Made by a program: the position numbers and the translations under genes. This document shows, in pieces, positions 23,654 to 59,723 of a stretch of DNA of 64,000 bases. A model generated the notes under the pieces. The model did not search any database. It was not told the origin of the DNA and was given only the letters and a program-made list of their open reading frames with translations. The DNA is from an uncultured Dehalococcoidia bacterium. GTDB lineage: Bacteria > Chloroflexota > Dehalococcoidia > DSTF01 > RBG-16-68-14. The stretch lies in contig CAYOSF010000010.1 in the NCBI GenBank assembly GCA_964406605.1, positions 117,840-181,839 of the forward strand, given 5' to 3'. Each line of letters opens with the position of its first letter. Position 1 is the first letter of the stretch.

Positions 23654-26251
23654 CTACACCGGCAGACGAGGAACCACGCCAGCGGTAAACTGTAGCACCA
23701 AGGCGGCATCTAGTGCGTTGACGACACCATCTTGATTTGCATCGGCTTGGGCTTGGCACGCCAATGAGCCTCTTAGTCCAGCTGCATACTGAAGGATGGC
23801 CAAGGCGTCCAGGCTCGATACGTCTTCGTCGCAATCTGCATCGCCATAGACGACCATTGGCGTTGCAGTGGCAGTCGGGGTCGCCGTTTGCGTCGCACCC
23901 GCGCTGGGACTGGGGGTCACAGTTGCGGTCGGAGACGCTGTTGGTTGCTCTCCTTTCCCTCCGCTGCTGCACGTGCTGTTCGCACAGTGGAGGATGACCA
24001 GGGCCAAGTTGTTGGCCCGGTCGCCGAACGCAACGACGGGATTTGCATTCGAGTCCAACACTAGGGAGGCCCCCAACCCAACGGAACCAAACGTAATCGG
24101 CGTCTCAACGATATTGCCCGAAGCGCACGCCAGATCACCGCACGACACAATGGTTAGATCTCCCTCTCCTGGCTCATGGACTGCTATGACAGGTCTCCCT
24201 CCTGAACTGAGGGCTAGTGACAGGCCTCGCTCACTCATAAAGAAACCCCCAGCCCCTCCAGCCACGACGGTCTCAGACTGATTCCCAGACTCACAGGTGA
24301 CATCACCGCACCGCAGTAGACGGACCAGTTCATTCTCAACGTCATAATACGCTACTACTGGAATACCCAGCGGATCCAGAGCTAGGGACGAGAACCCGAC
24401 GTTGGTGCCTTCGTCTACCGCGATCGCCTCGTTCGGTCCAGTGCAATTGGGGTCCTCGCAATGAAGCACGTACAAGTCGCCGTCACCCTCGTCAAATCGC
24501 GTGAAGCTCATCACCGGATTCCCATCTTGGTCGATTGCCAGCGAACTTAGCGCGCCAGCTCCAAGTGGACTGATGGTGTTGCCACTCGAACACGTGGGGT
24601 CTCCGCAGTGCAGTAGCACCAGTCCGCCAAGGCCATCGTCATAGCTGACCGCGGGATTCCCGGATCTGTCAAGTTCAAGTGAAGCTCCACTGCCAAGTTC
24701 GTGTTCGGTCGGCGCAACAATTGTATTGCTCCCGCTGCAAGATGGGTCGCCGCAGTGCAGAACATTGATCCCACCATCCGCTTTGTACGCCACGACCGGG
24801 TTTCCTAGGGAGTCGAGCTTCAGCGACGGTCCCGAACCATCGAAACCAACGATCGTACCGTCTCTGCAATTGCTGTCGGCGCAGTGGAGCACCCGTATCT
24901 CCGGCGAACCTCCTTCTGGGCTGTGTCCATATCCCACAACCGGATTCCCATCTTCGTCGAGCACGAGTGAGCTCGCGAATCCAAGGGTAGCGCCACCCAG
25001 GTCGGGTCTGCTCACCTGGTTGCCCGAAGTGCACCAGGAATCCCCGCAACGAAGTACTTTCAAGGAGAAGCTCTCTTCAAGTGGGACGAAGGGTCCCGTC
25101 GTACCGTCGAAGTAGCCAATTGCAGGATTGCCCAGATCATCGAGTCGCAGCGATGGAGATCCGAACTCCCCTTCGTCCACCGCGATCATCGTGTTGTCCG
25201 CTGCGCAGTTGGTGTCGCCGCAGTGGAGTACTCGTAGCTCACCCGAGACCGAGAACGGTGGACTATGGACAAACAGGTATGCGATCACCGGTCGTCCAGC
25301 TGCGTCAAGAGCGAGAGACGGACTGCCCCCGGTAGGTCCAAAGGTGTCGGGCGAGGTGATCACGTTCTTGGACGTACATGCCGCGTTTCCGCAGTGCACT
25401 ACTCTCAGCGCACCGAAGCCGTATGCCACTACTGGGTTTCCACTCCCATCGAGAGCCATCGCCGTACCTGCCCCCCACACATGATTTCCATCCGGGTCGG
25501 GCGATGCGATGGAATTCTCAGAAGCACAGTTGGGATCCCCACAACTCAGCACTCGCAGGCCGGCATCTGTTGACTCGTCGCCCTCTCCCACGTAGCTCAC
25601 GACAGGATTGCCATCGGAATCCAGCCGAAGATCAGTCGTTCCGCCTGACGCGGCGACGCCTGGAGAACTCGAAATGTTTCCTTTCGCGCAGTTCGGATCG
25701 CCACAATGGAGCAACTTTACAACGTGGTTCGCGCTGTCATAGTAGCTCACCACAGGGTACCCGGACACATCCAACTCAAGTGAGGAGTATCCGCCTACTC
25801 CCCCGGTATCAGCCGTAACTAGGGAATTTCCGGACGTGCAATTGGCGTCGCCACAATGAAGGATCTTCAATGAGCCGTCGCTTTGGCTGCCATAGCTGAC
25901 CACCGGCTTGCCTTCAGCATCTAGCTCGATAGAGGTGTCAATCGCGAGGACGGCGGAATGCGGCGTGGCGATTGAGTTCCCGGCAGAGCACGTCGAATTG
26001 CCGCAGTGCAGGACCTTGAGTGCGTTCTCGGTTTCGTCGAAGTAGCTGACAACCGGGTTCCCAAGGACATCTAGAACCAGCGAGGGCGATGTGCCAACTA
26101 CACCATCGCTGTCGGGCACCGTAATTGTGTTCCCTCCGGTTCCCCGCGCCACGTCCCCCGGCAGCAACAAACTCGCCGCCGCAGCGACGGCGAGGATCGC
26201 TAAACTAGTGAGTACCTGGCGCCAACAATCCATCGATCCCTCCAGTTTCAA
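23654..26251 (-). CDS. Secreted protein with 14 tandem Cys-pair repeats, a Thr/Pro/Ala linker and a C-terminal dockerin-like module
   Basis: A signal peptide is present. There are 14 units built on ..LDxxGNPVVSY..(L/V)(K/R)(V/I)LHCGDxxC.(S/G)N.. . The C-terminus reads GDADCDEDVSSLDALAILQ...DANQDGVVNALDAALVLQFTAG..LPV. Confidence 0.85.
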   Translation of the reverse strand: MKLEGSMDCWRQVLTSLAILAVAAAASLLLPGDVARGTGGNTITVPDSDGVVGTSPSLVLDVLGNPVVSYFDETENALKVLHCGNSTCSAGNSIATPHSAVLAIDTSIELDAEGKPVVSYGSQSDGSLKILHCGDANCTSGNSLVTADTGGVGGYSSLELDVSGYPVVSYYDSANHVVKLLHCGDPNCAKGNISSSPGVAASGGTTDLRLDSDGNPVVSYVGEGDESTDAGLRVLSCGDPNCASENSIASPDPDGNHVWGAGTAMALDGSGNPVVAYGFGALRVVHCGNAACTSKNVITSPDTFGPTGGSPSLALDAAGRPVIAYLFVHSPPFSVSGELRVLHCGDTNCAADNTMIAVDEGEFGSPSLRLDDLGNPAIGYFDGTTGPFVPLEESFSLKVLRCGDSWCTSGNQVSRPDLGGATLGFASSLVLDEDGNPVVGYGHSPEGGSPEIRVLHCADSNCRDGTIVGFDGSGPSLKLDSLGNPVVAYKADGGINVLHCGDPSCSGSNTIVAPTEHELGSGASLELDRSGNPAVSYDDGLGGLVLLHCGDPTCSSGNTISPLGAGALSSLAIDQDGNPVMSFTRFDEGDGDLYVLHCEDPNCTGPNEAIAVDEGTNVGFSSLALDPLGIPVVAYYDVENELVRLLRCGDVTCESGNQSETVVAGGAGGFFMSERGLSLALSSGGRPVIAVHEPGEGDLTIVSCGDLACASGNIVETPITFGSVGLGASLVLDSNANPVVAFGDRANNLALVILHCANSTCSSGGKGEQPTASPTATVTPSPSAGATQTATPTATATPMVVYGDADCDEDVSSLDALAILQYAAGLRGSLACQAQADANQDGVVNALDAALVLQFTAGVVPRLPV

Positions 26252-27178: not shown

Positions 27179-29695
27179 CTATGCTGCTGATTCCTGGATA
27201 GCCAGGCCTTCCGCCACGTCTCGGGGGCGGCCGATGTGGTAGCCCTGCGCGTAGTCGGCGCCGAGCTCTCGCAATAGCTGCACCGTTTCGTCGTTGCCGA
27301 CGAACTCGGCGATGGTCTTCTTGCCCAGCCCCGTGGCCACCTGCACGATGGCTTGCACCAGGTGCTGGTCCACCGGGCTGTGCGGCAGGTCACGGATGAA
27401 CGAGCCATCGATCTTCAGGTAGTCGACGGGCAGGTGTTTCAGGTGGTAGAAGGACGAGAAGCCGACGCCGAAGTCGTCGAGTGCGAACTGGCAGCCCAGC
27501 CCCTTCAGTCGAGCGATCAGGCTCTGAGCTTGGGCGATGTTGGCGATGGCGGCCGTCTCGGTGACCTCCAGCACCAGGCTCGTCGGCTCGACCGACCTGG
27601 CTTCCAGCTCCCGGGAGATGAAGTCGTAGAGATCGTTGTCGGCAAAGGCCTTGCCGGACAGATTGACCTCCAGCCGCACCGCTCGTCCCGCTCGACGTTG
27701 CGCTGCTATCAGGCGGACGGCCTGGCTGATCACCCACCGGTCGATGGCGTTGATCATGCCTGAGCGTTCCGCGATTCCGATGAACGAGTCGGCTTCGATC
27801 ACGCCGTCTTTGCTGCGCAGACGGAGCAGCAGTTCATGCTGGGGTACGCTCCCGCTATGGAGGTCCAGGATTGGCTGCGCGTAGAGGCAGAACAGCCCGT
27901 GTTCCAGGGCGTCCCGGATGCGATGCTGCCACCCGAGCCTGGACTCGACCTCGGCGTGCCAGTCCATCCCGCCGGCGCAGACACTGACGCGGTTCGGCCC
28001 CTGTTCCTTGGCCTGGTACATGGCCAGATCGGCCCGGGAGAGCAGGTCCTCGGGTATCAAGCCGTGCTCTGGGTACAGCGCGATGCCGATGCTGGCGGTC
28101 ACCCGGGCCGCGCTTCCGCCGGCCTGGAAGATGTGGCCTTGGATGGAGCTCAGGAGCATGCCCGCTACCTCAAGGGCCTGCTCGCGGTCGGCGTGGGGAA
28201 GGAAGACGGCAAACTCGTCCCCGCCTGCCCGGGACACGATGTCGGAGTCGCGCAGCCGGTCTCGGAGCAGCCGGGCCAGCCCGGCGAGCAGCTCGTCGCC
28301 GGCCAGGTGGCCCAGAGTGTCGTTGATGTCCTTGAAGTCGTCCAGGTCCAGGAACAGCAGGGCGCCCCCGGTATCGTACCTCTCCGCCAGAGCCAGCTGC
28401 GTCTCCAGCTCCTCCTGGAACCGCCGCCTGTTGAACAGGCGAGTCAACGGGTCGTGATTCGCCAGGTGCACGAGGCGGTCCTCGAAGTGCTTGCGCTCGC
28501 TGATGTCCCGCACGACACCGATGAACGCCTCAGGGTTCCCCTCCCCATCGCTGACGAGCGAGGCGCTGAGTTCGGCGGGGAACCGGCTCCCGTCCTTCCT
28601 CAGCAGGCGGTACTCGATGTTCCTGACGCTTCCGGTTCGCAGGGCGGCGGCTGCATTCTCCGCGGCCCGCTGGCGGTCTTGCGGGTCCACGAATTCCATC
28701 GCGCTCCTGCCGATCATGTCGTCCGCGGTTTCGCACCCGTGCACGGCTATTGCCTGACGGTTGACCATGACGATGTTGCTGCTCAGGTCGGTGAGCGTGA
28801 TGGCGTCGGGGGACGTCTCAATGAGCGTCCGATAGCGCGACTCGCTCTCGCGCAGCGCCCGTTCCGCTCGCTTCCGCTCCGTGATGTCTCTCAAAGAACC
28901 TTCGATTGCCACCGGCGTGCCGTCTTCCGAGAGCACGAGACGGGCACCCACCGAGGCGTCTGCCACCCGGCCGTCGCCCGTCTTGAGGCGGACCTCGTAG
29001 TCGATGACCTCCCTGTTCTCCACGAGCGTCTTCACGAGGTGTGCCCGGGACTCCGGGTCTTCGTAGATGTCGAGCACCTGCGTGCCGATCAGCTCGTCGC
29101 GTGCGTATCCGTAGCCTTCCACCGAAGGGCTGATTTCCGTGATGATGCCTTCCATGTCCGTTCGGTAGAAGACGTCCCGGACGTTCTCGAAGAAGCTCCG
29201 GTACTTCGCTTCCTGTTCCCTGAGCGCCTCTTCCGCCTGTTTGCGCTCGGCGATGTCGCGCACCGCGACAGCTCTCACCGACCGGCCCTCGTACAAGACG
29301 GTTCTGCCCCTGATCTCCAGGGGGATCTCAGTCCCATCCTTTCGAAGGCCCTGCACCTCGCACGGCTCCTCGCAGCCCGACACGATGTTCCGCCAGACAG
29401 TGGCGCGGGATTCTTCCGTGACAAGAGTCAGCCCGTCCAAGCCGACGAGCTCGGCGACTTCATATCCCGAGAGCGCAGCCAGAGCCGGGTTGGCGGCCAG
29501 AATCGTGCCCCTATCGTGAATGAAGACCCCCTCAGTAGCCGCCTCGCACAGAAGCCTGAGACCTTCTCCGTCTGCTCGACGGACGTGGTCCGCTTGTATT
29601 CCCTCGGCGGATTCCGAGCCGGACCGCTCGCGGCGACTCAGAATCTCGTTGCCCGCCGGCTGCCCGGACTGCCTGTCGTGGTGTCCTTCTGCCAT
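27179..29695 (-). CDS. Multi-PAS GGDEF-EAL signalling protein (c-di-GMP cyclase/phosphodiesterase)
   Basis: It has three or four PAS-like modules. GGDEF (RAGGDEFAV) and an EAL domain (..ELLLRL.., DDFGVGFSS) are present. The start is uncertain: I use the ATG at 29695, but the ORF extends to 29839. Confidence 0.9.
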   Translation of the reverse strand: MAEGHHDRQSGQPAGNEILSRRERSGSESAEGIQADHVRRADGEGLRLLCEAATEGVFIHDRGTILAANPALAALSGYEVAELVGLDGLTLVTEESRATVWRNIVSGCEEPCEVQGLRKDGTEIPLEIRGRTVLYEGRSVRAVAVRDIAERKQAEEALREQEAKYRSFFENVRDVFYRTDMEGIITEISPSVEGYGYARDELIGTQVLDIYEDPESRAHLVKTLVENREVIDYEVRLKTGDGRVADASVGARLVLSEDGTPVAIEGSLRDITERKRAERALRESESRYRTLIETSPDAITLTDLSSNIVMVNRQAIAVHGCETADDMIGRSAMEFVDPQDRQRAAENAAAALRTGSVRNIEYRLLRKDGSRFPAELSASLVSDGEGNPEAFIGVVRDISERKHFEDRLVHLANHDPLTRLFNRRRFQEELETQLALAERYDTGGALLFLDLDDFKDINDTLGHLAGDELLAGLARLLRDRLRDSDIVSRAGGDEFAVFLPHADREQALEVAGMLLSSIQGHIFQAGGSAARVTASIGIALYPEHGLIPEDLLSRADLAMYQAKEQGPNRVSVCAGGMDWHAEVESRLGWQHRIRDALEHGLFCLYAQPILDLHSGSVPQHELLLRLRSKDGVIEADSFIGIAERSGMINAIDRWVISQAVRLIAAQRRAGRAVRLEVNLSGKAFADNDLYDFISRELEARSVEPTSLVLEVTETAAIANIAQAQSLIARLKGLGCQFALDDFGVGFSSFYHLKHLPVDYLKIDGSFIRDLPHSPVDQHLVQAIVQVATGLGKKTIAEFVGNDETVQLLRELGADYAQGYHIGRPRDVAEGLAIQESAA

Positions 29696-29878
29696 GCCGA
29701 CTGCCTTCAAATGTTGTATCGGTTCCCTCTGACGTGGAATCCAGGCCCGTCCAAGCTGGTCGGGGGACACAGCGACGCAAATACGGGAAGCGGACGACGG
29801 GCTCCGTGGGGCAGCATACGACGCCGCGAGGGGCGTCACGACGACCAGCTACACTGACTCTGCCCTTCGGGGCTGGCC

Positions 29879-31555
29879 CTACGGGACCGGCGTGGGTGAG
29901 CCCTCCGCCTCCTGTATGGCCTCAATGATGTCGCCCGGCCCGGGCCGCCTGGGCTGGATGCTGAGGAACGGGACGACCTGCTCGGTCATCATCTCATCGA
30001 CGACGCCGGCATACCGCGGCTCGTCCACGACGTTGTGATCCTCGTCCGGGTCCTCATCGAGGTCGAATAGCTGGACGGGCGCCTTGGTCTCCTCGTACAC
30101 GAGCAGCTTGTGGCGCTCCGTGCGAAACATGGCGAAGCCGTAGTTCTCGCTGTGCACCGACTCGCGGGCCGCCCCGCCGGCGGACCCCGTCACGCGGCCA
30201 AGAAGCGAGATCCCTTCGCTCCCCTTGAGCGCCGGAGCGCCCGCGATCTCGCGGATCGTCGCGGGGATGTCGACGTGCTCCACCAGATCGTCGATCACCT
30301 TGGCCTCCATTCCGCCCGGCGGCCTGACGATCAAGGGCACGCGGACGGACGGTTCGTAGAACACCATCTTGGTGAGCATGAGGTGATCGCCGAGCATCTC
30401 GCCGTGGTCGCTGGTGTAGAAGATCCACGTGTTGTCGAGGATACCCTTGCGCTCCAGCGCCGCGATGATGTCGCCGATGCGCTCGTCGATGAGCGTCACG
30501 TTGGCGTAGTAGAAGCGGCGGACCTCCTCGACGATCTCCTTCGTCAGCGTGTCGGAGTGCCCATAGGATTGGAAGGCCTCGATGAAGATGCGCAGCGGTC
30601 CGGAGTCGGGGAGTTCGGGCGGCGTGAGCGTCCCCAGCGGGACGTCGCTGCCCCGGTAGCGCTGGACGTACTCGTCGGGCGCATCCCACGGATCGTGGGG
30701 GCCGGGGAACCCCACCCACTGAAAGAACGGCTGCTCGCTGTCGTAGCTCTCGATCCACTCCGCCGCCCGCCGGCCCGTCCAGTTGTCGATATAGGCGTCG
30801 GCCGGCAGCGGGAGGGACTCGGTGTGCCACATGGGCAGGCGGTCGACGAGCTCGCCGTTGATCTCCACCTGCCCGCGCCCGTAGCGCCTGTAGGCCATCC
30901 ACTCCTGGTACGTCTCGTACAGGCCCAGGCTCTCCAGGTAGTCGCTGTACTCGGTGCGGATGTTGGCGGCGGCGTGCTTGCCCACCGTCTCGATCGGCTC
31001 GTCGAAGCCGAGGGAACTGATGTAGTCGATTCGGTCGCGCGTGTCGGCGACGCCGGCATGACGGTAGAAGTGCATCTTCCCCACGCAGCTCGTGTAATAG
31101 CCCGCCTCCTGCAGGCTCTGCAGGAACGTCGGCAGCCCGACGGGGACTTCCCACTTGTTCTCGAACACGCCGTGATCGCGAACGTAGCGCTCCGTGAGGA
31201 ACGAGGCGCGCGCCGGCATGCAGAGCGGCCCCTGGCAGTAGGTGTGGCTCAACAGCACGCCCTCTCCCGCCAGGCGATCGAGGTTGGGCGTCTGGACGAC
31301 AGGGTTGCCCTCGCAGCCCATGGCGGGCGCGCGGTGCTGATCGGCCATGATCACCAGGATGTTCGGCCGCTCCCCGGCTGACCCCGTTCCGGGAGCCGTG
31401 CCCGTCGCGCCGGCCCCCGGTGCTTCGTCGCCGTCGCCTCCGTCGCAGCCGGCGGCCAGCGCGAGGCCTGCGGCGCCGATCCCCGCGGCGCCCAGGAGCC
31501 GCCTACGCGAGATGCGTTCACGCTGAAACCACTGCCAGTAGCTCTTCCTCGTCAC
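29879..31555 (-). CDS. Sulfatase (arylsulfatase-type, formylglycine-dependent) with a Tat signal and lipobox
   Basis: The GTG at 31555 lies 4 nt after GGGAGGGAGGGAG. SRRRLLGAAGIGAAGLALAAGC is the Tat signal with lipobox. CMPAR (CxPxR) is present. ..ILVIMADQHR.. is the sulfatase N-terminal motif. Confidence 0.9.
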   Translation of the reverse strand: MTRKSYWQWFQRERISRRRLLGAAGIGAAGLALAAGCDGGDGDEAPGAGATGTAPGTGSAGERPNILVIMADQHRAPAMGCEGNPVVQTPNLDRLAGEGVLLSHTYCQGPLCMPARASFLTERYVRDHGVFENKWEVPVGLPTFLQSLQEAGYYTSCVGKMHFYRHAGVADTRDRIDYISSLGFDEPIETVGKHAAANIRTEYSDYLESLGLYETYQEWMAYRRYGRGQVEINGELVDRLPMWHTESLPLPADAYIDNWTGRRAAEWIESYDSEQPFFQWVGFPGPHDPWDAPDEYVQRYRGSDVPLGTLTPPELPDSGPLRIFIEAFQSYGHSDTLTKEIVEEVRRFYYANVTLIDERIGDIIAALERKGILDNTWIFYTSDHGEMLGDHLMLTKMVFYEPSVRVPLIVRPPGGMEAKVIDDLVEHVDIPATIREIAGAPALKGSEGISLLGRVTGSAGGAARESVHSENYGFAMFRTERHKLLVYEETKAPVQLFDLDEDPDEDHNVVDEPRYAGVVDEMMTEQVVPFLSIQPRRPGPGDIIEAIQEAEGSPTPVP

Positions 31556-31715
31556 GCTTCTCCCTCCCTCCCTGTTACCAACCGCCCGGCTCGGGCACAC
31601 GCGTGTCATCGCCGCATATCGATGCCTCGAGCGCCCAACGGGAGGCATCGATCGCGACCGGCTGTGTCACATTCTACGATGTCGGGGCCGGGGGGTGGGA
31701 GCGCGCCTGCGCCCC

Positions 31716-36325: not shown

Positions 36326-38884
36326 CTAGGCTGCTTCAGACCACGTGCGCAGCAGCACCTCCTCGAGCTCCTCGGCATCAACCGGGCGGCTAAAGAGGAA
36401 GCCCTGCACTTCGTCACACAGCTCGCGCTCGAGAAACGCGAGCTGCTCCTCGGTTTCCACACCCTCCGCCACCACGCCCAGCTTGAGGTTGTGTGCCATG
36501 TGGATCACCGTGGCGGTGATCTCCGCGTCTCTCGGGTTCGTGGCGACGTTCCGGACGAAGGAGAGATCGACCTTCACGGCATCGATGGGCAGGCGGCGCA
36601 GGTAGCTCAGGGAGGACTGGCCGGTGCCGAAGTCGTCGATGGCGATCTCGATGCCCATCTGTCTCAACTGCCGCAGCATCATGATGCTGTAGTCCACGTC
36701 TTGAATGGCCACGCTCTCGGTGATCTCCAACTGGAGGAAGTGGGCGTCGAGGCCGGTCTCCTGCAGCACCTGCCGCACGCGTTCCACCAGATCGCGCTGT
36801 TGGAACTGCCGCGCCGAGAGGTTCACCCCTACGCGGACTCGTGGGAGCGCTGCGTCCTGCCAGACCTTGGTTTGGGCGCAGGCTGTGCGCAAGATCCATT
36901 CCCCGAGCGGTGCGATCAGGCCGGTCTCCTCGGCTACCGGGATGAACTCGGTAGGCATCACCAGCCCTCGTTTCGGATGCTGCCAGCGCACCAAGGCCTC
37001 CACGCCGACGATCCGCCCGCTCTGGATATGGACCTGGGGCTGGTAGTGGATGACGAACTCCTCTCGCTCCAGCGCGTGGCGCAAGTCGTTCTCCAGGGCC
37101 AGCCGATCGAGGATGCTGGCACTCATGGCAGGGCTAAAGAGCTGGTGGTTGTTCCGCCCGTGCTCCTTCGCGCTGTACATGGCGATGTCGGCGTTCCTCA
37201 GCAAGGTCTCCGCGTCGTCGCCGTGGTTGGGGAACACGGCAATGCCGATGCTGGGCGTGATGCGAAACTCGTGGCCGCCCAGGAAGCGCGGCCGCCGGAA
37301 CTCCTCCACGACCCGCTCGACGACCTCGATTGCGTCGCCGATCCGCTCGACGGCTGGTAGCAGCAGCAGGAATTCGTCGCCCCCCACCCGGGCCACGGTG
37401 TCCCCCTCCCCTGTCAGCTCCCTGAGCTGCGCGGCGATGGTCCGGAGCAGATCGTCTCCCTCAGGATGGCCGGCCGTGTCGTTCACCACCTTGAAGTGAT
37501 CCAGATCGAGCAAAGCCACTGCCACGAGTCGGCTGTGACGGCGCGCCTGGGCCAGCGCCACATCCAGACGGTCCCTGAACAACGTGCGATTGGGTAGATC
37601 GGTCAAGGGGTCATGGTACGCCAGGTGTCTGACAGCCTCCTCCGCTTGCTTGCGCTCTGTGACGTCGCGGAAGATGCCCCTGGTGGCCACCGGCTTTCCG
37701 TCCTGCAGCTGGGCGAAGGTGCTGCCCTCAACCCAGATACTCCTGCCCTGCTTGGTCACGAACTCGGCCTCAATTCGGTCAAGGCTCTCGCCGGCCATCA
37801 CACGCTGGAACATGGCCATGCAATGCTCTTTGCTATCGGGGTGAACGATGTCAAGCATGTTGAGGCTGCGGATCTCTTCCTCGCCGTACCCAAGTGTCTC
37901 GCGCCAGGCGCGGTTGACATAGACATAGGACCCATCCATCGCCACGCTCTGGATGATGTCGCTTGTGCTCTCAAACAGGTCGCGATATCGTTCCTCGCTC
38001 TGCCGCAACTGCTCCTCCGCCCGCTCGCGTCTGGCGATGTCTTTGACCAGCGAATCTGTCATCCGATTAAAGGAGGCGCCCAAGCGGACGAGTTCCTGCG
38101 GGCCTGTCGCGGGTGCCCGAGCCTCGAGATCGCCATCCGCCACGGCCAGGGTGGTCGACTCCAACGACGAAAGCGGCTTCAGGATGGAGCGCGCCATCAG
38201 GGCGGATGCTGCGGTACCCAAGACAGCACCGGCCGCGCCGAAACCGACAAGGAGCCAAAGGGCGATCTGGCCTGCATGGTCGGCCTGGCCTCGAAGGCTC
38301 GCCGCTTCCTGACGCTCGAAGTCGGCTGCGTCCCTGAGCTGCACGCCGATCATGGTCATCGGCGAGACCTGCTGTTCGAGAGCGGCTCTTGCACCTTCAA
38401 TGTCGCCGGTCTGGCGTAAGCCGATCACTACCTCCGCCGTCTCTGAGAGCTTGGCCAACCCCTCGGCTATGAGGTCCAGCCCGGCGGACTCCTCTTCGCT
38501 GTAGTGCTCATACTGCCCATTGGAGCTGTGCTCTTCTTCCAGTGCTCGCGCCAGACTGAGGGAGTCCTTCGCATCCGCAATGCTCCTGCGGAGAATGGGA
38601 GCGAGCGCCTCGTCTCCAGTAACGATGTAGCGTTCGAGCAGCCACGCGGCGACGGCGCTCTGGAACCTGGCGTCTTCCAGGGCTAGTGCTGTCCGTTCGT
38701 AAGAAGCTGCGGTGGCAAGGTGGGAATCGTGGTGCCGCTCCATCAGCGTGGCGCTTGCTACCACCGCGATCAGGACAAGGACGAGCAGGCCGTTGCTGGC
38801 AATGATCCGTCCTTTCGTCGAGGAAGGCAGGGGCAATCTGGCCCACCGGAGACGGGGAATGCTGATTCCTGGCAACCTTATCAT
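36326..38884 (-). CDS. Membrane sensor HAMP-PAS-GGDEF-EAL protein (c-di-GMP turnover)
   Basis: It has an N-terminal TM helix, a periplasmic helical region, a second TM helix with HAMP, and PAS. GGDEF (VGGDEFLLL) and EAL (EALVRW, DDFGTGQSS) are present. Confidence 0.9.
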   Translation of the reverse strand: MIRLPGISIPRLRWARLPLPSSTKGRIIASNGLLVLVLIAVVASATLMERHHDSHLATAASYERTALALEDARFQSAVAAWLLERYIVTGDEALAPILRRSIADAKDSLSLARALEEEHSSNGQYEHYSEEESAGLDLIAEGLAKLSETAEVVIGLRQTGDIEGARAALEQQVSPMTMIGVQLRDAADFERQEAASLRGQADHAGQIALWLLVGFGAAGAVLGTAASALMARSILKPLSSLESTTLAVADGDLEARAPATGPQELVRLGASFNRMTDSLVKDIARRERAEEQLRQSEERYRDLFESTSDIIQSVAMDGSYVYVNRAWRETLGYGEEEIRSLNMLDIVHPDSKEHCMAMFQRVMAGESLDRIEAEFVTKQGRSIWVEGSTFAQLQDGKPVATRGIFRDVTERKQAEEAVRHLAYHDPLTDLPNRTLFRDRLDVALAQARRHSRLVAVALLDLDHFKVVNDTAGHPEGDDLLRTIAAQLRELTGEGDTVARVGGDEFLLLLPAVERIGDAIEVVERVVEEFRRPRFLGGHEFRITPSIGIAVFPNHGDDAETLLRNADIAMYSAKEHGRNNHQLFSPAMSASILDRLALENDLRHALEREEFVIHYQPQVHIQSGRIVGVEALVRWQHPKRGLVMPTEFIPVAEETGLIAPLGEWILRTACAQTKVWQDAALPRVRVGVNLSARQFQQRDLVERVRQVLQETGLDAHFLQLEITESVAIQDVDYSIMMLRQLRQMGIEIAIDDFGTGQSSLSYLRRLPIDAVKVDLSFVRNVATNPRDAEITATVIHMAHNLKLGVVAEGVETEEQLAFLERELCDEVQGFLFSRPVDAEELEEVLLRTWSEAA

Positions 38885-40179: not shown

Positions 40180-42342
40180 ATGTCTGCATGGAAGAGATTC
40201 GCGCTCCGGTCGCGACGAACGGCCCTCGTTCTGAGCGTCATGGCGTTCGCGGCAGTAGCCGTGCTTCCCTGGCCGACGGCCGAGCCGACCGGCGCGACGG
40301 GCAACACCATCACCCAGTTGGACCAGGCTGGCGCTTTCGAAGGGTCCGGCTCGCTCGTTCTGGACTCAAGCGGCAACCCGGTGATCAGCTTCTACCGCGG
40401 GGGAGATCGGGACCTCGTGGTGGTGCACTGCAACGACCCCAACTGCGAAGGTGACGACGAGAGCATCGTCACACCCGATACGGGCGACGTAGGCACGTTC
40501 ACCTCGCTCAAGCTGGATTCAAGCGGCAACCCGGTCGTCAGCTACTACGACAAGGCCGGCCGCGACCTGAAGGTGCTGCACTGCGGCACTGCCAACTGTA
40601 CATCAGGCAACAGCATGACCTCGCCCGACACGAGCGGTATCGTGGGCCAGTACACTTCGCTGGAGTTGGACTCAAGCGGCAACCCGGTGGTGAGCTACTG
40701 CGGCAACACTCAACTGAAGGTCATGCACTGCAACGACCCAAACTGTGCGGGCGGCGACGAGAGCATCAACTCGACCGACTCAGGCTTCGACTTCGGGTAC
40801 ACGTCGCTGGAGCTGGATGCAAGCGGCTACCCGGTCGTCAGCTACTGCCAGTTCGGGGGAGGTCTGTGCAACGACCTGAAGGTGCTTCGCTGCAACGACC
40901 CGAACTGCGCGGGCGGCGACGAAAGCATCGCCTCGCCCGACACGGAGGGCGATGTCGGCTACTATACCTCGCTGGAGCTGGACGGAAGCGGCTATCCGAT
41001 CGTGAGCTACCACGACTTCACCAACCACGACCTGAAGATGCTGCACTGCGGCAACGCCAACTGCACGTCGGGCAACAGCCTCACCTCGCCTCACACCGAC
41101 GACAACGTCGGTGGAGACACCTCGCTGGAGTTGGACTCAAGCGGCAACCCGGTGGTCAGCTACCACCACATAGGCTACGGCGACCTCATGGTGATGCACT
41201 GCAATGACCTCGACTGCTCGGGCGGCGACGAGAGCTTCGCCTGGCCCGACACGCCCGGCTGGGTGGGGTCGTATACATCGCTGGCGCTGGACTCAAGCGG
41301 CAACCCGGTGGTCAGCTACCGCAACGACACCGGCCACGCCCTCAGGGTGCTGCATTGCAGCGACCCCAATTGCGCCGGCGTCAAGATCACACCGACCTCC
41401 ACACCAACGCCCACGCCAACCTACACGGCCACACCGACGGACACGCCCACGCCCACCGATACCCCCACGCCAACGGCCACGGCCACGCCCACCGATACCC
41501 CCACGCCAACGGCCACGGCCACGCCCACAAACACGCCGACCAACACGCATACACCTACCGTGACCAGCTCGCCAACCCCAACCCCAACTCCAAATACTCC
41601 TGTCGGGGCGCCGGTAGAGGTGCCGCTGGGCGTCGGGGTTACGGTCACCTTTGACGAGGTGACACAGGCTGGCAATACGACGCTGACAACGAGTGAGCCG
41701 GGACCGCCACCGCCGCAGGGTTTCCGCTTGGGCTCTCCGCCAACGTACTACGACATCTCCACCACAGCAACCTACACAGGAAGCATCGAGGTCTGCATTG
41801 ACTACGACGATTCTGCCTTCGCACCCGGCGTCGAAAAAAGCCTGCGGCTCTTTCATCGCGAAGACTCTGCTTGGGTGGACGTGACCACCTTCCTGGACAC
41901 GGACATCAACCGGATCTGTGGCAGGGTCACCGACCTGTCCTTGTTCGTCCCGGCCGAACTGATACCGGGAGAGGACTTCGATGGTGACGGATGCCCGAAT
42001 GAGGAGGAGTTGGGTGACGACGGGCGAGCGGGCGGGCGCCGCGACCCGCTCAACCCGTGGGACTACTTCAACCCGACAAACGACGGGCTGAACCGCATTG
42101 ATGACGTGCTGGCCGTGGTGGACCACTACTTTCTCCGCGAGGGCGAGCCGGGCTACGAGAGCGGCAAGTACGACCGGAGCTATCTGGGGCCGAACGATTG
42201 GAACCTGGGTCCGCCGGACGGGCAGGTGCTGGTGGACGACGTTGTGCACGCGGTGAAGCAGTACTTCCACGACTGCGGGACAGGGATCGTGAAGCCGACG
42301 CCCACAGCGCCGCTGGCACCCAACGCGACGCCACTGCGGTAG
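40180..42342 (+). CDS. Secreted protein with 7 Cys-pair repeats, a PT linker, a beta-sandwich-like domain and a C-terminal Ca-binding/dockerin-like region
   Basis: A signal peptide is present. Seven units share the ..LDSSGNPVVSY..LKVLHC(N/G)DPNC.. motif seen in 23654..26251. A long TPTPT linker follows. The C-terminus carries DFDGDGCPNEEE and two N/D-x-D-G..(I/V)DDV helices. Confidence 0.85.
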   Translation: MSAWKRFALRSRRTALVLSVMAFAAVAVLPWPTAEPTGATGNTITQLDQAGAFEGSGSLVLDSSGNPVISFYRGGDRDLVVVHCNDPNCEGDDESIVTPDTGDVGTFTSLKLDSSGNPVVSYYDKAGRDLKVLHCGTANCTSGNSMTSPDTSGIVGQYTSLELDSSGNPVVSYCGNTQLKVMHCNDPNCAGGDESINSTDSGFDFGYTSLELDASGYPVVSYCQFGGGLCNDLKVLRCNDPNCAGGDESIASPDTEGDVGYYTSLELDGSGYPIVSYHDFTNHDLKMLHCGNANCTSGNSLTSPHTDDNVGGDTSLELDSSGNPVVSYHHIGYGDLMVMHCNDLDCSGGDESFAWPDTPGWVGSYTSLALDSSGNPVVSYRNDTGHALRVLHCSDPNCAGVKITPTSTPTPTPTYTATPTDTPTPTDTPTPTATATPTDTPTPTATATPTNTPTNTHTPTVTSSPTPTPTPNTPVGAPVEVPLGVGVTVTFDEVTQAGNTTLTTSEPGPPPPQGFRLGSPPTYYDISTTATYTGSIEVCIDYDDSAFAPGVEKSLRLFHREDSAWVDVTTFLDTDINRICGRVTDLSLFVPAELIPGEDFDGDGCPNEEELGDDGRAGGRRDPLNPWDYFNPTNDGLNRIDDVLAVVDHYFLREGEPGYESGKYDRSYLGPNDWNLGPPDGQVLVDDVVHAVKQYFHDCGTGIVKPTPTAPLAPNATPLR
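41452..41523 (+). repeat. Perfect 2 x 36-bp tandem duplication inside the PT-linker coding region
   Basis: 41452-41487 equals 41488-41523 (cccaccgatacccccacgccaacggccacggccacg). It encodes PTDTPTPTATAT twice. Confidence 0.9.
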
Positions 42343-53412: not shown

Positions 53413-53658
53413 CGCGTTCGCATGGCCGACCGGCTCGCCGATAGCGACCCGCGCCCGGTCAAGCCCACGTCGCACAATCGCACTTGGCCGGCAACTCGCG
53501 CGATGCGCCCGCAGGGTCATCGCCGCATGAGCGATGTGCCGCGGTGGTTCGCCGTATCCGCGGCCGGCCGGCGGAAGCCGGCGGCCCGGTTGCACGCCGA
53601 CGCGCGCCGTGCTAGCTTGCGGCCACGAAGGCACGAGAGCAGCGAAAGCGGAGGCTGC

Positions 53659-55053
53659 ATGCTCACGCGACTTACCCCTCCAGGACTTGGTGTTCTTCTC
53701 GCAGCGCTCGTCGTGGGGACAGCCCTGCTGTGGCCGGCCGCCGATTCGGGCTGGGCGTCGGGCCCAATCGTGTCGGTGACGGCCGGAGGCGAGCATACGT
53801 GCGCTCTGACTTTGGCGGGTCGGGTGAAGTGCTGGGGTGACAACTTCCGCGGCCAATTGGGGGACGGGACGTCCACTGACCGCAGCGTGCCCGTGGATGT
53901 GGTGGGTCTTGGAAGCGGGGTTGCTGGCGTCACTGCGGGGCAGCAACACACCTGCGCCTGGATGCCGTCGGGCACGGCGGGGTGTTGGGGATCGAACACC
54001 TACGGCCAGTTGGGAGATGGGTCAGGTGCGCCCCAGCAGTTCACGCCGTCGACCGTGGTGGGTCTGACAAACGCGGCGGCATTGAGCGCGGGGTCTGACC
54101 ACACCTGCGCTCTGACGAACGCCGGAGGCGTGAAGTGCTGGGGGCGGAACGATTTCGGTCAAGTGGGCGATGGAACCACGACGCATCGTCCCACGCCCGT
54201 AGGCGTGACCGGGCTGGGCAGCGGCGTCGCCGCTGTCGCGGCCGGCGGCAACCATACGTGCGCCCTGACGACGGCGGGGGGCGTCAAGTGCTGGGGTCGC
54301 AACAACCAGGGCCAGCTCGGAGACGGTACGACGATTGACCGAACGACGCCGGTCAACGTGGTTGGGTTGACGAGTGGCGTCGCCGCCATCGCTCCCGGGT
54401 TTCTCCATACCTGTGCGCTCACGACGGGCGGTGACGTGAAGTGCTGGGGGCGGAACGACCACGGCCAGCTCGGGGACGGCACCGGGACCCCCCGACCGAC
54501 ACCGGTCAGCGTGCTTGGCCTGCCGGCGGGCACGACTGCCGTGGCCTCCGGCGGCAGCCACACGTGCGCCGTCACCGCCGGCAGCCGCGTTCGATGCTGG
54601 GGTTGGAACGGGTTCGGGCAGCTTGGGGACGGCACGACGGTGAGCCAGAACAGAGCGGTAGGCGTGTGCGCCGACGCGACGTGCGCCGGCCCCCTAGAGG
54701 ACGTAGCCAGCGTCGATGCCGGTTACACGCACACTTGTGCCGTGACCATGGAGACCGGGACCAGATGCTGGGGGAGCAACGGCAACGGCCAGCTGGGGGA
54801 CAGCACCACGATCGATCGGCGCGCACCGGTGCACGTCCTACTCGCCAAGGCTGTGCGTATTGGGGACGTGAACTGTGATGGAGCCATCAATAGCGTGGAC
54901 GCGGCACTCGTCCTGCAGTTGGTGGCCGGCCTCGTCCCATCCCTGCCCTGCCAGATTGCCGGGGATGCCGACCTGGACGATTCCGTCAACTCAATCGACG
55001 CGGCGCTCATCCTGCAGTTCACCGCGGGCCTCATCGGTCACCTGCCGCCGTAG
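53659..55053 (+). CDS. Secreted RCC1-repeat (7 blades) protein with a C-terminal dockerin-like module
   Basis: A signal peptide is present. There are seven ..HTCA....G.VKCWG.N..GQLGDGT.. units. The C-terminus reads [53 protein letters not shown]. Confidence 0.85.
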
Positions 55054-55234
55054 CGGGCGAAAGCCGACCGCCAAGATCGCACGATCGCACGTGCCCGCGG
55101 GTGCCTGAGGACTGGCTTCTGGCCCAGCGTCTCGTTCGCGAGCAGCGGGCCGGCAATACCAGCCCCTGGCGCCGCGCGTCGTCCTCCTTCGCCTTTAGCC
55201 TGTAGGGCCCGATCAGGTACGCTGTGCCAACGTG

Positions 55235-56281
55235 ATGTCTGCTCTCCTGCGGGTGCTAGTCGTTGCCTCACTTGTAGCCGTCGGAGCAGCCTGCGGTCGA
55301 ACGGATTCTGTGGACGGGCCTGCAGAGACGGAATCTGAGATTGGCCCCGCACCGGCGCTGTCGGACGTCCAATTCTGGGCGTATCAGATCCAAGGCCTTG
55401 ATCGAGGGGACGCCATCGCCGACCTCGCGAACTCTCACTACGACCTGATCGTTGTCGAGCCCACCCGAACGGTCGCCGGCAACGAGGGGTTCGACACGGC
55501 GAGCGCCGTCGCGCGCATCAAAGCGAGCGCCAACAGTTCCGGCGACGGGCGGAAGATCGTGCTGGCGTACATCGACATCGGAGAAGCTGAGGACTACCGG
55601 ACGTACTGGGACGACGCTTGGAGCGCGCCTTCAGGAGATGGGCGTGGAAACCCCGACTTCCTCGTCGCGCCTGATCCCGACGGCTGGTCCGGCGACTATC
55701 CGGTTGCGTTCTGGGACGGCCGGTGGAAGGACATTGTCATCTACGACGACGACAGCCTGATCGACGCGGCGATAGCCGACGGCTTCGATGGCATCTATCT
55801 TGACTGGGTAGAGGCATATGATGACGTGAGCGTGATCGATGCGGCGGAGGAAGACGGCGTAGACGCGGCAACGGAGATGGTCGCGTTCATCCGAGAGATG
55901 CGTGAGTTCGCGGAGGAGAGGCACCCTGGATTCCTGATCGTGGCCCAGAACGGGGCGGATCTGCTCGATGGTCACCCGGAGTACCTCGATCTCATCGACG
56001 GTCTGGCGCAGGAAGACCTCTCGTTTCTTGGAGACGCGGACACCGGCTGGGATGGCCCGGACTCCGGAGACATCCCGCAGGACGAGGGGTACCACAACTA
56101 CCTCCTTGGCGTGCTCGAGCGCTACGCTGCCGAAGGCATCCCGACCTTCTGCGTTCAGTACGCCAGAGAGCCGGAGAACGTCGAGCGGGCGCTGGAGGAT
56201 GCCGACGATGTCGGGTGCGTTCCGTACGTTACGCTGACGCCCTTGGATCGCCTCACCGATACCCCACCACCCGGATATTGA
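55235..56281 (+). CDS. GH114/TM1410-like putative glycoside hydrolase lipoprotein (endo-alpha-1,4-polygalactosaminidase-like)
   Basis: The lipobox is AVGAAC. ..WAYQIQGL..YDLIVVEP.. and ..VLAYIDIGEAEDYRTYW.. fit the GH114/TM1410 pattern. Confidence 0.7.
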   Translation: MSALLRVLVVASLVAVGAACGRTDSVDGPAETESEIGPAPALSDVQFWAYQIQGLDRGDAIADLANSHYDLIVVEPTRTVAGNEGFDTASAVARIKASANSSGDGRKIVLAYIDIGEAEDYRTYWDDAWSAPSGDGRGNPDFLVAPDPDGWSGDYPVAFWDGRWKDIVIYDDDSLIDAAIADGFDGIYLDWVEAYDDVSVIDAAEEDGVDAATEMVAFIREMREFAEERHPGFLIVAQNGADLLDGHPEYLDLIDGLAQEDLSFLGDADTGWDGPDSGDIPQDEGYHNYLLGVLERYAAEGIPTFCVQYAREPENVERALEDADDVGCVPYVTLTPLDRLTDTPPPGY

Positions 56282-59308: not shown

Positions 59309-59723
59309 GAAGGTGGAGTCCTTGTCCCAGGATGGCCTCACACTAGACGGCTGAAGCGTACGTGTCAAGCGCACCGCCGCCGAATGAGAGTTGGGTGTGT
59401 TCCGCAATCCAGTTGAGTGCGGTCGCGGTGCTAGGGCTGGGTCGGCGAGCGGGATTGCGCCCTTTCATCATCGTGTGGCCTCCGACCCCCGCGAAGAACG
59501 AAATGACTAGCACCGTGCCGTCGTCATCGGCCCCAGTAGATAGTGCATCCGGCCTTGGCGGGCTACCACGGCACCGTTTGGCCGTCGCCAATGTCGTACA
59601 ATCGCACTTGGACGCCCTTGACCTCCGACTAAGGTATCCTCCAGCGGATGGCATATGACTTCCGGAATGACGTATTCTTGCGATACGTGTGGCTGAGCGT
59701 CCTAGACTGGCACTCACCCATAT

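What the first reader, a model, noticed from the sequence alone, without database searches (positions are those of the whole stretch)
23654..26251. Fourteen tandem Cys-pair repeats (2 x 7) of a repeat type I cannot assign to a named family, on a secreted dockerin-tailed protein
After the signal peptide, the 865-aa protein is built almost entirely from 14 units of about 45-55 aa. The shared core is (S/T)L.LD..G.PV(V/I).Y....(L/V)(K/R)(V/I)(L/V)HCGD..C..(G/S)N. Every unit carries a C-x4-C pair: HCGNSTC, HCGDANC, HCGDPNC, SCGDPNC, HCGNAAC, HCGDTNC, RCGDSWC, HCADSNC, HCGDPSC, HCGDPTC, HCEDPNC, RCGDVTC, SCGDLAC, HCANSTC.

The count of 14 is twice 7, and the paralog at 40180 has exactly 7. That is what two 7-bladed beta-propellers would give, with one disulfide or metal site per blade. 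The motif is not the WD40, Kelch, RCC1, NHL or YVTN signature as I know them. The gene is visibly less G+C-rich than its neighbours.
Basis: partly seen in the sequence, partly recalled or inferred. Interest (0 to 1): 0.75.

Follow-up and report, generated by a model that had tools for sequence, protein, structure and literature searches.

The report
Disulfide-stapled double beta-propeller surface protein
This gene encodes an exported protein made of two seven-bladed beta-propellers, each blade carrying an invariant cysteine pair, followed by a dockerin anchor; it belongs to a very large, widespread family that no curated database describes and that most resembles bacterial sugar-binding propeller lectins.

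Summary
The ORF 23654..26251(-) carries exactly 14 units of 43-58 aa. Each unit ends in C-x4-C, and these pairs account for all 28 Cys of the repeat region. The real start is probably the ATG at 26233, giving 859 aa. The tail is a type I dockerin. The paralog at 40180 has exactly 7 units and a 'flexitail' C-terminus.

The fold inference is supported. AlphaFold2 models are confident (pLDDT 83.5 and 86.5) with four strands per unit. The 7-unit module superposes on the whole seven-bladed Photorhabdus PLL/PHL lectins (TM 0.70-0.79). Among 122 proteins, 88 have 14 units and 20 have 7.

The repeat has no proper curated family. Pfam BNR_4 and DUF1936 scores are sums of fragments that are not individually significant. 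There is no PDB sequence hit. The family is nevertheless large: 20,491 clusters at 50% identity, in Chloroflexota, Actinomycetota, Legionella, CPR bacteria and others.

Conservation is purely periodic, with no blade-specific catalytic residues. Weak NCBIfam 'beta propeller lectin' hits recur. C-terminal anchor modules are interchangeable.

Best reading: an exported, disulfide-stapled, multivalent binding (lectin- or adhesin-like) head displayed through a dockerin. The ligand is unknown. This is a new variant of a known kind, of moderate interest.

The parts
26141..26233 (-). Start codon (ATG 26233, GGAGG 6 nt upstream) and N-terminal signal peptide, MDCWRQVLTSLAILAVAAAASLLLPGDVARG, with a probable cleavage site A-R-G|T.
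   Evidence: Sequence. The gene was called from this ATG on an independent contig. AF2 predicts a helix at aa 7-28. The maximum 12-residue Kyte-Doolittle hydropathy is 2.7. Cleavage is inferred, not predicted with a dedicated tool.
25031..26140 (-). Propeller 1: repeat units 1-7 (aa 38-407 in 865-aa numbering), each with four strands and a terminal (H/R/S)C-x4-C.
   Evidence: Unit HMM boundaries, tblastn of the p2 propeller to 26143-25031, AF2 strands and Foldseek to seven-bladed lectins.
23969..25030 (-). Propeller 2: repeat units 8-14 (aa 408-761).
   Evidence: Unit HMM boundaries, tblastn of the p2 propeller to 25027-23966 and AF2 strands.
23852..23968 (-). Thr/Pro/Ala/Ser-rich flexible linker (aa 762-800).
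   Evidence: Sequence. AF2 pLDDT is below 50 for aa 765-811.
23657..23851 (-). Type I dockerin (aa 801-865). It has two Ca-loop/helix segments, DADCDEDVSSLD and DANQDGVVNALD, and two Cys that are conserved in the window's other dockerins. The stop codon is at 23654-23656.
   Evidence: Pfam PF00404 E 3.5e-9, PDB dockerins 1daq and 2mte, and the alignment with the two other dockerins of the window.
40180..42342 (+). Paralog p2 (720 aa). It has a signal peptide, one 7-unit propeller (aa 40-398; 40297..41373), a Thr/Pro linker, an unassigned middle domain, and a flexitail domain (aa 599-699; 41974..42276).
   Evidence: 7 units; NF041520 E 8e-25; AF2 and Foldseek.

Best explanation
p1 is an exported, surface-displayed binding protein.

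Proposed mechanism:
1. A Sec-type signal peptide exports it.
2. Outside the cytoplasm, the 14 units fold into two closed seven-bladed beta-propellers. Each unit is one four-stranded blade.
3. The invariant C-x4-C lies in the 10-residue connection between the last strand of one unit and the first strand of the next. It forms a small intra-loop disulfide that staples consecutive blades, an adaptation to the extracellular milieu.
4. A flexible Thr/Pro linker separates the propellers from a Ca-dependent type I dockerin. The dockerin tethers the protein to a cohesin-type partner or to the cell surface.
5. The propellers present one equivalent site per blade or inter-blade groove, up to 14 in all. 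They act as a multivalent lectin- or adhesin-like head for a repetitive ligand, most likely a glycan.

p1 is a divergent member. It keeps the structural core but has lost the family's conserved aromatic residue in the first loop in 12 of 14 blades. Its codon usage suggests recent acquisition.

Shown here: the repeats, the invariant Cys pairs, the fold, the dockerin, the exported nature of the family and the periodic conservation.

Inferred: disulfide formation, blade register, ligand class and the dockerin partner.
For: Fold:
- AF2 models are confident.
- Foldseek gives all of the top 20 hits to PLL/PHL seven-bladed lectins, at E down to 3e-14 and TMt up to 0.79.
- Unit counts are 14 in 88 proteins and 7 in 20, of 122 scanned.

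Cys pairs:
- Both Cys are 100% conserved in 1,553 units.
- The flanking His is only 76% conserved (Arg 16%), and position +2 after the first Cys is Asp 44% / Asn 43%. The putative extra metal ligands are therefore not conserved.
- Legionella-type members have exactly 28 Cys, that is 14 x 2.
- 194 of 223 Met-starting members have a strongly hydrophobic N-terminus.
- Precedent: each blade of the extracellular seven-bladed CRINKLY4 propeller is stabilised by a conserved disulfide (bioRxiv 10.1101/2020.08.10.245050).

Binding rather than catalysis:
- Of 200 columns that are >=85% conserved in 60 14-unit proteins, only 2 are not periodic consensus positions.
- Weak hits to NCBIfam NF052348 'beta propeller lectin' recur in 8 of 60 14-unit members, and in the 7-unit member P0117 (E 1e-6 across about 4 blades). 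There is one hit to BP39L lectin.

Display logic:
- The C-terminal modules of homologs are interchangeable. They include dockerin, flexitail (7/60 and 4/19), fn3, Ig-like, PKD, RTX, NHL, FG-GAP/HYR, cell-wall-binding repeats and LamG, and some members are giant proteins.
- The same window encodes two RCC1-propeller proteins with homologous dockerins.
Against: - No ligand, binding assay or solved structure exists for any family member.
- The Trp pockets that define PLL sugar sites are absent. No unit position has Trp above 8%.
- p1 itself lacks the conserved loop aromatic in most blades, so it may bind weakly or bind something else.
- p1 and p2 themselves give no hit to the lectin models. Relatives score at most 28 bits against a cutoff of 200.
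- No cohesin was found in the ORFs I scanned.
- No conserved neighbour gene was found in 80 loci.
- Cys-Cys distances could not be read from the models.
Confidence: 0.5

Rival explanations
1. It is a carbohydrate-active enzyme, either a polysaccharide lyase or a glycosidase. The catalytic centre would sit in the central cleft of a seven-bladed propeller, as in PL24/PL25 ulvan lyases, PL42/GH145 or GH74. The dockerin would deliver it to a degradative complex.
For: - There is weak Pfam BNR_4 similarity; BNR_4 is the PL25 ulvan lyase family.
- Second-tier Foldseek hits are GH145 BT3686, PL42, PL24 LOR107 and sialidases. GH74 appears among the double-propeller hits.
- Dockerins classically tag carbohydrate-active enzymes.
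- A sulfatase and a GH114 gene lie in the window.
Against: - Conservation is entirely periodic. No blade-specific invariant residues exist that could form one active site.
- BNR_4 matches cover only about 35-40 profile positions, with no individually significant stretch.
- The enzyme structures match clearly worse than the lectins (TMt 0.56-0.66 against 0.70-0.79).
- There is no conserved carbohydrate-active neighbour gene.
Confidence: 0.1
2. It is a non-lectin protein-protein interaction or structural platform of the cell envelope, for example a scaffold, an S-layer-associated protein or a receptor. The propellers would bind proteins or peptides rather than glycans.
For: - Beta-propellers are generic interaction platforms, and Foldseek also finds DDB1, Gemin5 and IFT proteins.
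- The Trp sugar pockets of PLL are absent.
- Fusion partners such as NHL, FG-GAP, fn3 and Ig-like modules are typical of adhesins that bind proteins.
- PLL hydrophobic sites can also bind peptides (PMC6943638).
Against: - The best structural matches, and the only recurrent sequence-level signals, are to lectin families.
- Near-identical blades with per-blade conserved polar or aromatic loop residues (D10, G16, Y18, D24, Y33) are typical of multivalent lectins. This last point is inference.
Confidence: 0.25
3. The per-blade (H)C-x4-C motifs are functional metal-binding or redox-active sites, for example 14 Zn/Cu/Fe sites or thiol-disulfide exchange sites, rather than structural disulfides.
For: - The two Cys are the only 100% conserved positions and are usually preceded by His and followed by Asp or Asn.
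- Short-motif, sub-threshold hits fall on Cys or Sec motif proteins. These are DUF1936, the C-x4-C zinc knuckle of ribosomal eL42, the seleno_TsoX 'HSGNPxU' motif, YdhT and RsxB.
Against: - His is replaced by Arg, Ser or Tyr in about a quarter of units, and Asp alternates with Asn. Only two ligands per site would therefore be conserved.
- The family is overwhelmingly exported, where paired Cys normally oxidise.
- All the motif hits are far below family cutoffs.
- CRINKLY4 shows that per-blade disulfides can be purely structural.
Confidence: 0.1

Closest known systems
[quoted passage not shown] This is probably the NCBIfam NF052348 family; the related BP39L lectins are NF052349.
   Same: Both have seven four-stranded blades of about 48 aa built from near-identical tandem repeats. 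These lectins are the best Foldseek matches for both models (E down to 3e-14, TMt up to 0.79, whole target aligned). Weak multi-blade sequence hits to NF052348 occur in 9 family members.
   Different: Identity in the structural alignment is only 11-17%, and there are no PDB sequence hits. The lectin models score at most 28 bits against a cutoff of 200. PLL binding pockets rely on Trp (PMC6943638), which is not conserved here. PLLs have no per-blade Cys pair; their Cys, where present, make inter-subunit bridges. PLLs are single propellers without dockerin or flexitail tails, whereas p1 is a tandem propeller with an anchor.
Plant CRINKLY4 (ACR4/PpCR4) ectodomain propeller
   Same: It is an extracellular seven-bladed propeller in which every blade carries a conserved disulfide. 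That disulfide is interpreted as stabilisation for the extracellular environment (bioRxiv 10.1101/2020.08.10.245050).
   Different: CRINKLY4 blades are RCC1-like, whereas p1 has no RCC1 signal. True RCC1 propellers in the same window score E 1e-76 to 1e-108. CRINKLY4 is eukaryotic, is a single propeller with an N-terminal strand plugging the pore, and is fused to a receptor kinase.
Pfam BNR_4 (PF15892), the PL25 ulvan lyases (PDB 5UAM)
   Same: Both have a seven-bladed propeller fold. A blade-length motif (D-x-x-G-N-P-hydrophobic-S-Y) resembles BNR_4 profile positions of about 214-256. Whole-protein scores of many homologs exceed the Pfam threshold, so they get this label automatically.
   Different: Only one ~35-40 aa segment of the 272-position profile is ever matched, and no stretch is individually significant. 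p1 itself is below threshold (19.8 against 27.3 bits). There is no blade-specific catalytic His/Tyr. PL24/25 structures are weaker Foldseek hits.
Dockerin-bearing non-cellulosomal surface proteins
   Same: The C-terminal type I dockerin has two intact Ca-binding loops. The window holds two further dockerin-tailed propeller proteins.
   Different: No cohesin partner was identified here. The passenger domain is not a recognisable enzyme.

Membership tests
PLL/PHL-type seven-bladed beta-propeller lectins | A closed propeller of seven four-stranded blades built from tandem ~48 aa repeats. | tested here: met
   AF2 models. Foldseek TMt 0.70-0.79 over the whole target.
PLL/PHL-type seven-bladed beta-propeller lectins | Sequence membership, meaning a match to the NCBIfam NF052348 'beta propeller lectin' model above its 200-bit cutoff. 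| tested here: not met
   p1 and p2 give no hit at E<=1. The best relatives score 28 bits. That NF052348 is the PLL family is my inference from its name and its length of 337.
PLL/PHL-type seven-bladed beta-propeller lectins | Conserved Trp residues forming CH-pi sugar pockets between blades (PMC6943638). | tested here: not met
   No unit position has Trp above 8% in 1,553 units. Tyr or Phe are conserved at positions 18, 33 and 34 instead.
PLL/PHL-type seven-bladed beta-propeller lectins | Measured carbohydrate binding. | not testable with these tools
   This needs a glycan array, ITC or SPR.
Pfam BNR_4 (PF15892, PL25 ulvan lyase-type propeller) | A domain-level match to the 272-position profile above the gathering score. 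| tested here: not met
   p1 scores 19.8 bits against a cutoff of 27.3. p2 scores 28.6 bits but with 0 individually significant stretches. All matches cover only profile positions of about 214-256.
Pfam BNR_4 (PF15892, PL25 ulvan lyase-type propeller) | Blade-specific catalytic residues (His/Tyr) in a central cleft. | tested here: not met
   Only 2 of 200 highly conserved columns are non-periodic, and p1 differs from the consensus at both.
Type I dockerin (PF00404) | Two tandem Ca-binding loop-helix segments (D-x-[DN]-x-D...D) at the C-terminus, above the Pfam gathering score. | tested here: met
   37.2 bits against a cutoff of 22.9. The two loops are DADCDEDVSSLD and DANQDGVVNALD.
Type I dockerin (PF00404) | A cognate cohesin partner. 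| tested here: inconclusive
   No cohesin was found among 21 window ORFs scanned. Only 64 kb of the genome is visible.
Disulfide-per-blade extracellular propellers (CRINKLY4 type) | One conserved Cys pair in every blade of an exported seven-bladed propeller. | tested here: met
   for the Cys pairs, and for export.
Disulfide-per-blade extracellular propellers (CRINKLY4 type) | The Cys pairs are actually oxidised to disulfides. | not testable with these tools
   Model coordinates are not exposed and there are no experimental data.
Disulfide-per-blade extracellular propellers (CRINKLY4 type) | RCC1-like blade sequence. | tested here: not met
   There is no RCC1 hit at E<=1. Genuine RCC1 propellers in the same window score E 4e-76 and 6e-108.
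WD40 / Kelch / NHL / YVTN / FG-GAP / TECPR repeat families | A Pfam repeat model match. | tested here: not met
   None was reported for p1 or p2 at E<=1. NHL and FG-GAP hits in homologs lie in separate, additional domains.
NCBIfam flexitail (NF041520), paralog p2 only | A C-terminal 107-position domain above the 40-bit cutoff. | tested here: met
   87.7 bits, aa 599-699.

The most novel reading that the evidence does not exclude
The C-x4-C propeller is the founding description of a very large family (more than 20,000 clusters at 50% identity) with no curated description in Pfam-A or NCBIfam. On this reading it is a new class of extracellular multivalent glycan-binding modules. It would be only remotely related to PLL lectins, would use Tyr/Asp loops instead of Trp pockets, and would be stabilised by one disulfide per blade. 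Chloroflexota, Actinomycetota, CPR bacteria and Legionella would deploy it on swappable anchors (dockerin, flexitail, giant adhesins). A more radical version is that the (H)C-x4-C loops are 7 or 14 redox or metal sites, which would make this a new kind of extracellular redox or metal-binding propeller.
Probability: 0.3. Interest if true: 0.6.

Novelty: new variant of a known kind. Interest (0 to 1): 0.4.

Why it matters
If the lectin or adhesin reading holds, this family is one of the larger unannotated sets of bacterial surface-binding modules. It occurs in poorly understood lineages (Dehalococcoidia and other Chloroflexota, Acidimicrobiia, CPR) and in Legionella and Coxiellaceae. A curated model would replace thousands of 'hypothetical protein' or misleading 'BNR_4' labels.

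The very regular, disulfide-stapled blades would also be attractive as stable multivalent scaffolds for glycan recognition.

For this genome, p1 and the two RCC1-dockerin proteins together point to a cohesin-dockerin-like surface display system for non-enzymatic propeller heads in a Chloroflexota-type organism.

Tried and rejected
1. PDB sequence searches with p1, the 21-unit profile, the 60-protein profile and P0117 gave only dockerin hits or noise.
2. The search for related loci with alignment A1 failed because it has no conserved stretch. With p1 alone it found only a distant Sorangium match, so the source genome is not among the species representatives.
3. The exact look-up of the 865-aa ORF failed. 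The 859-aa form was found, which fixes the start.
4. The listing of cluster members gave no names or accessions for 10 NCBI-sourced homologs.
5. A neighbourhood analysis of 80 loci found no conserved partner gene. The Legionella context was uninformative.
6. Literature searches found no description of this family. I searched for flexitail, PF15892, PF26607/DUF1936, Legionella propellers and Chloroflexi dockerins. Cluster 16 of the fibrillar-adhesin survey (PMC9210967) overlaps BNR_4 and may or may not be this family; its supplement holds no sequences.
7. I could not obtain a PLL sequence, so I could not run a profile-profile comparison.
8. Model coordinates are not returned, so the Cys-Cys distances, the blade register and the face on which the C-x4-C loop lies could not be measured.
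9. PF26607, listed for three homologs in precomputed data, is absent from the local Pfam copy. A newer Pfam release may therefore already hold a relevant model.
10. TRF found no DNA-level repeats, which rejects recent slippage or an assembly artefact.
11. A single 14-bladed ring is rejected, because half of p1 superposes on closed seven-bladed rings.
Full report
**Observation**

The ORF 23654..26251(-) is real. A regex scan finds exactly 14 C-x4-C pairs spaced 43-58 residues apart. All 28 cysteines of the repeat region lie in these pairs. The paralog 40180..42342(+) has exactly seven pairs, and tblastn finds no third copy in the window.

The mechanical ORF starts at a TTG. The ATG at 26233 is preceded by GGAGG, and the 859-aa product from that ATG is the form called on an independent metagenome contig (after a failed look-up of the 865-aa form). 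The coding sequence is therefore most likely 23654..26233.

The 21 units align cleanly into four strand-like segments plus the Cys loop. The consensus is x-x-G-N-x-I-x-x-P-D-x-x-G-x-x-G-x-x-x-S-L-x-L-D-x-x-G-N-P-V-V-S-Y-...-L-x-V-L-H-C-G-D-x-N-C. There is no DNA-level tandem repeat, so the units are ancient.

The lower G+C is real: 58% against about 66%. It sits at synonymous sites along the whole gene, dockerin included. GC3 is 0.52-0.71 in p1, against 0.75-0.97 in p2 and in every other gene tested. This points to foreign or recent origin rather than an amino-acid composition effect.

**Ends of the protein**

- The N-terminus is a typical signal peptide: a hydrophobic helix followed by A-R-G|T.
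- After a disordered Thr/Pro/Ala linker (pLDDT below 50 at aa 765-811), the C-terminus is a type I dockerin. It scores 37.2 bits against the Pfam cutoff of 22.9 and aligns to the Clostridium thermocellum CelS dockerin. Both Ca-binding loops are intact.
- The paralog ends instead in an NCBIfam 'flexitail' domain (E 8e-25).

**Fold**

- AF2 on p1, using an alignment of 60 14-unit proteins, gave pLDDT 83.5 and pTM 0.74. The model is all-beta with four strands per unit.
- AF2 on p2 aa 1-410 gave pLDDT 86.5, pTM 0.84 and 28 strands.
- For the 7-unit module, the top 20 Foldseek PDB hits are all Photorhabdus PLL/PHL seven-bladed propeller lectins. E-values go down to 3e-14 and TMt is 0.70-0.79, with the whole target aligned.
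- p1 matches the same lectins with one half. It matches tandem-propeller proteins (DDB1, GH74, Gemin5, microtubule inner proteins) over about 800 columns.
- A unit HMM finds 14 units in 88 of 122 proteins scanned and 7 units in 20. The rest are mostly fragments (the regex count is).

Two closed seven-bladed propellers is therefore well supported, and a single 14-bladed ring is not.

**Family**

No curated model describes the repeat. At E<=1, Pfam reports only the dockerin and sub-threshold BNR_4 for p1. In homologs, the BNR_4 and DUF1936 scores are sums of many fragments. Each fragment covers only profile positions of about 214-256 (BNR_4) or 15-30 (DUF1936). BNR_4 never gives an individually significant stretch; DUF1936 gives four only in P0041. 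BNR_4 is the PL25 ulvan lyase family, which is itself a seven-bladed propeller (PMC13193363). NCBIfam has nothing for the repeat. PDB sequence searches find nothing for it.

The family is nevertheless large.
- p1 has 640 hits at E<=1e-5 among the candidates scored.
- An exhaustive profile search of 1.84 billion representatives gives 20,491 clusters at E<=1e-3 and 6,207 at E<=1e-30. These include giant proteins of up to 7,237 aa.
- Species genomes carrying it are mostly Chloroflexota (Dehalococcoidia, Caldilineaceae, Anaerolineae). It also occurs in Acidimicrobiia and Gaiellaceae, Legionella and Coxiellaceae, Sedimenticola, several CPR lineages, Bryobacterales and Planctomycetota. Some genomes carry several copies.
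- The best matches to p2 are 55-59% identical and come from Dehalococcoidia/Chloroflexota MAGs, so the window is probably from that phylum.
- All names given by sources are 'hypothetical protein' or similar.

**What the conservation says**

Over 1,553 units, the two Cys are the only 100% conserved positions. Next come Pro29 (98%), Asp24 (92%), Leu41 (91%), Ser20 and Leu23 (89%) and Tyr33 (87%). The His before the first Cys is 76% conserved (Arg 16%). The residue two positions after the first Cys is Asp 44% / Asn 43%. Only the two Cys could therefore be conserved metal ligands.

Combined with a predominantly exported family and members whose total Cys count is exactly 28, a structural disulfide in each inter-blade connection is the most economical reading. 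The plant CRINKLY4 ectodomain provides a solved precedent: each blade of that extracellular seven-bladed propeller is stabilised by a conserved disulfide (bioRxiv 10.1101/2020.08.10.245050). I could not measure the geometry because model coordinates are not returned.

In the 60-protein alignment, 200 columns are >=85% conserved. Only two of them are not periodic consensus positions, and p1 deviates from the consensus at both. There is thus no blade-specific residue set that could form a single catalytic centre. This argues against the lyase or glycosidase rival and for a structural or multivalent binding role.

**Link to lectins**

Besides the fold match, 8 of 60 14-unit members give weak hits to NCBIfam NF052348 'beta propeller lectin'. 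So does the 7-unit protein P0117, at E 1e-6 (its aa 365-569 against profile positions 48-255 of 337). One member hits the BP39L lectin family. All are far below the 200-bit cutoff, and p1 and p2 themselves do not hit. This is a remote relationship at best, not membership.

PLL sugar pockets lie between blades and depend on Trp (PMC6943638). Here Trp is not conserved, while Tyr or Phe are frequent at unit positions 18, 33 and 34. p1 has lost the position-18 aromatic in 12 of 14 blades, and its first loop is poorly conserved. p2 keeps the aromatic in 5 of 7 blades. p1 is therefore a divergent member.

**Context**

There is no operon logic. p1 lies between an enoyl-CoA hydratase gene and a PAS-GGDEF-EAL gene. 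No neighbour family recurs in 80 loci.

The C-terminal modules of homologs are interchangeable. They include dockerin, flexitail, fn3, Ig-like, PKD, RTX, NHL, FG-GAP/HYR, cell-wall-binding repeats and LamG. This is the architecture of surface-displayed binding heads.

The window also encodes two RCC1-type propellers that carry dockerins homologous to p1's, including two conserved Cys. This organism evidently displays several kinds of propeller through the same anchor.

**Verdict**

The repeat is an uncurated but very widespread family, so p1 is not unique.

Most likely it is an exported, disulfide-stapled tandem propeller that acts as a multivalent lectin- or adhesin-like head on a dockerin tether. 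I put confidence at about 0.9 for the fold, 0.7 for the disulfides and 0.5 for the binding function. Rivals are a protein-binding or structural platform (0.25), an enzyme (0.1), and per-blade metal or redox sites (0.1).

Novelty: a new variant of a known kind. Interest is moderate (0.4).

Noticed in passing
window 53422..55053 (+) and 57944..59407 (-): Two further dockerin-tailed propeller proteins. Both have RCC1-like seven-bladed propellers (PF25390, E 4e-76 and 6e-108) followed by a type I dockerin. Their dockerins align with p1's, including two conserved Cys, which suggests a shared anchoring system. A GH114 gene (55232..56281) lies between them.
   Followed up: partly
window 23654..26233 (-): p1 has atypical codon usage over its whole length, dockerin included. 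GC3 is 0.52-0.71, against 0.75-0.97 in p2, the RCC1-dockerin genes and all other neighbours tested. This suggests recent horizontal acquisition from a lower-GC donor that uses the same type of dockerin.
   Followed up: partly
homologs P0074, P0113 and P0117 (H-C-G-N-P-x-C loops): The NCBIfam selenoprotein model seleno_TsoX ('HSGNPxU motif') gives sub-threshold, motif-only hits (at most 23 bits against a cutoff of 52) on the HCGNPxC loop. Sec aligns to the second Cys. This is probably coincidence, but it is a curious motif resemblance.
   Followed up: no
window 41590..41973 (+), about p2 aa 470-598: The region between the Thr/Pro linker and the flexitail domain of p2 matches no Pfam or NCBIfam family. 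It is an unassigned module.
   Followed up: no
window 27179..29839 (-) and 36326..38884 (-): Two large PAS-GGDEF-EAL (c-di-GMP turnover) genes lie between the two propeller paralogs, and a sulfatase gene is at 29879..31648 (-). No functional link to the finding could be shown.
   Followed up: no
homologs P0012, P0021 and P0041: The precomputed Pfam column lists PF26607.1, which the local Pfam copy does not contain. A newer Pfam release may already model part of these proteins.
   Followed up: partly
L002 (Legionella quateirensis, UGOW01000001.1 2571442-2589679): Legionella orthologs are bare proteins of a signal peptide plus 14 units (about 740 aa, exactly 28 Cys) with no anchor module. In L. 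quateirensis a DsbD gene lies three genes upstream and a GH64 gene three genes downstream.
   Followed up: no
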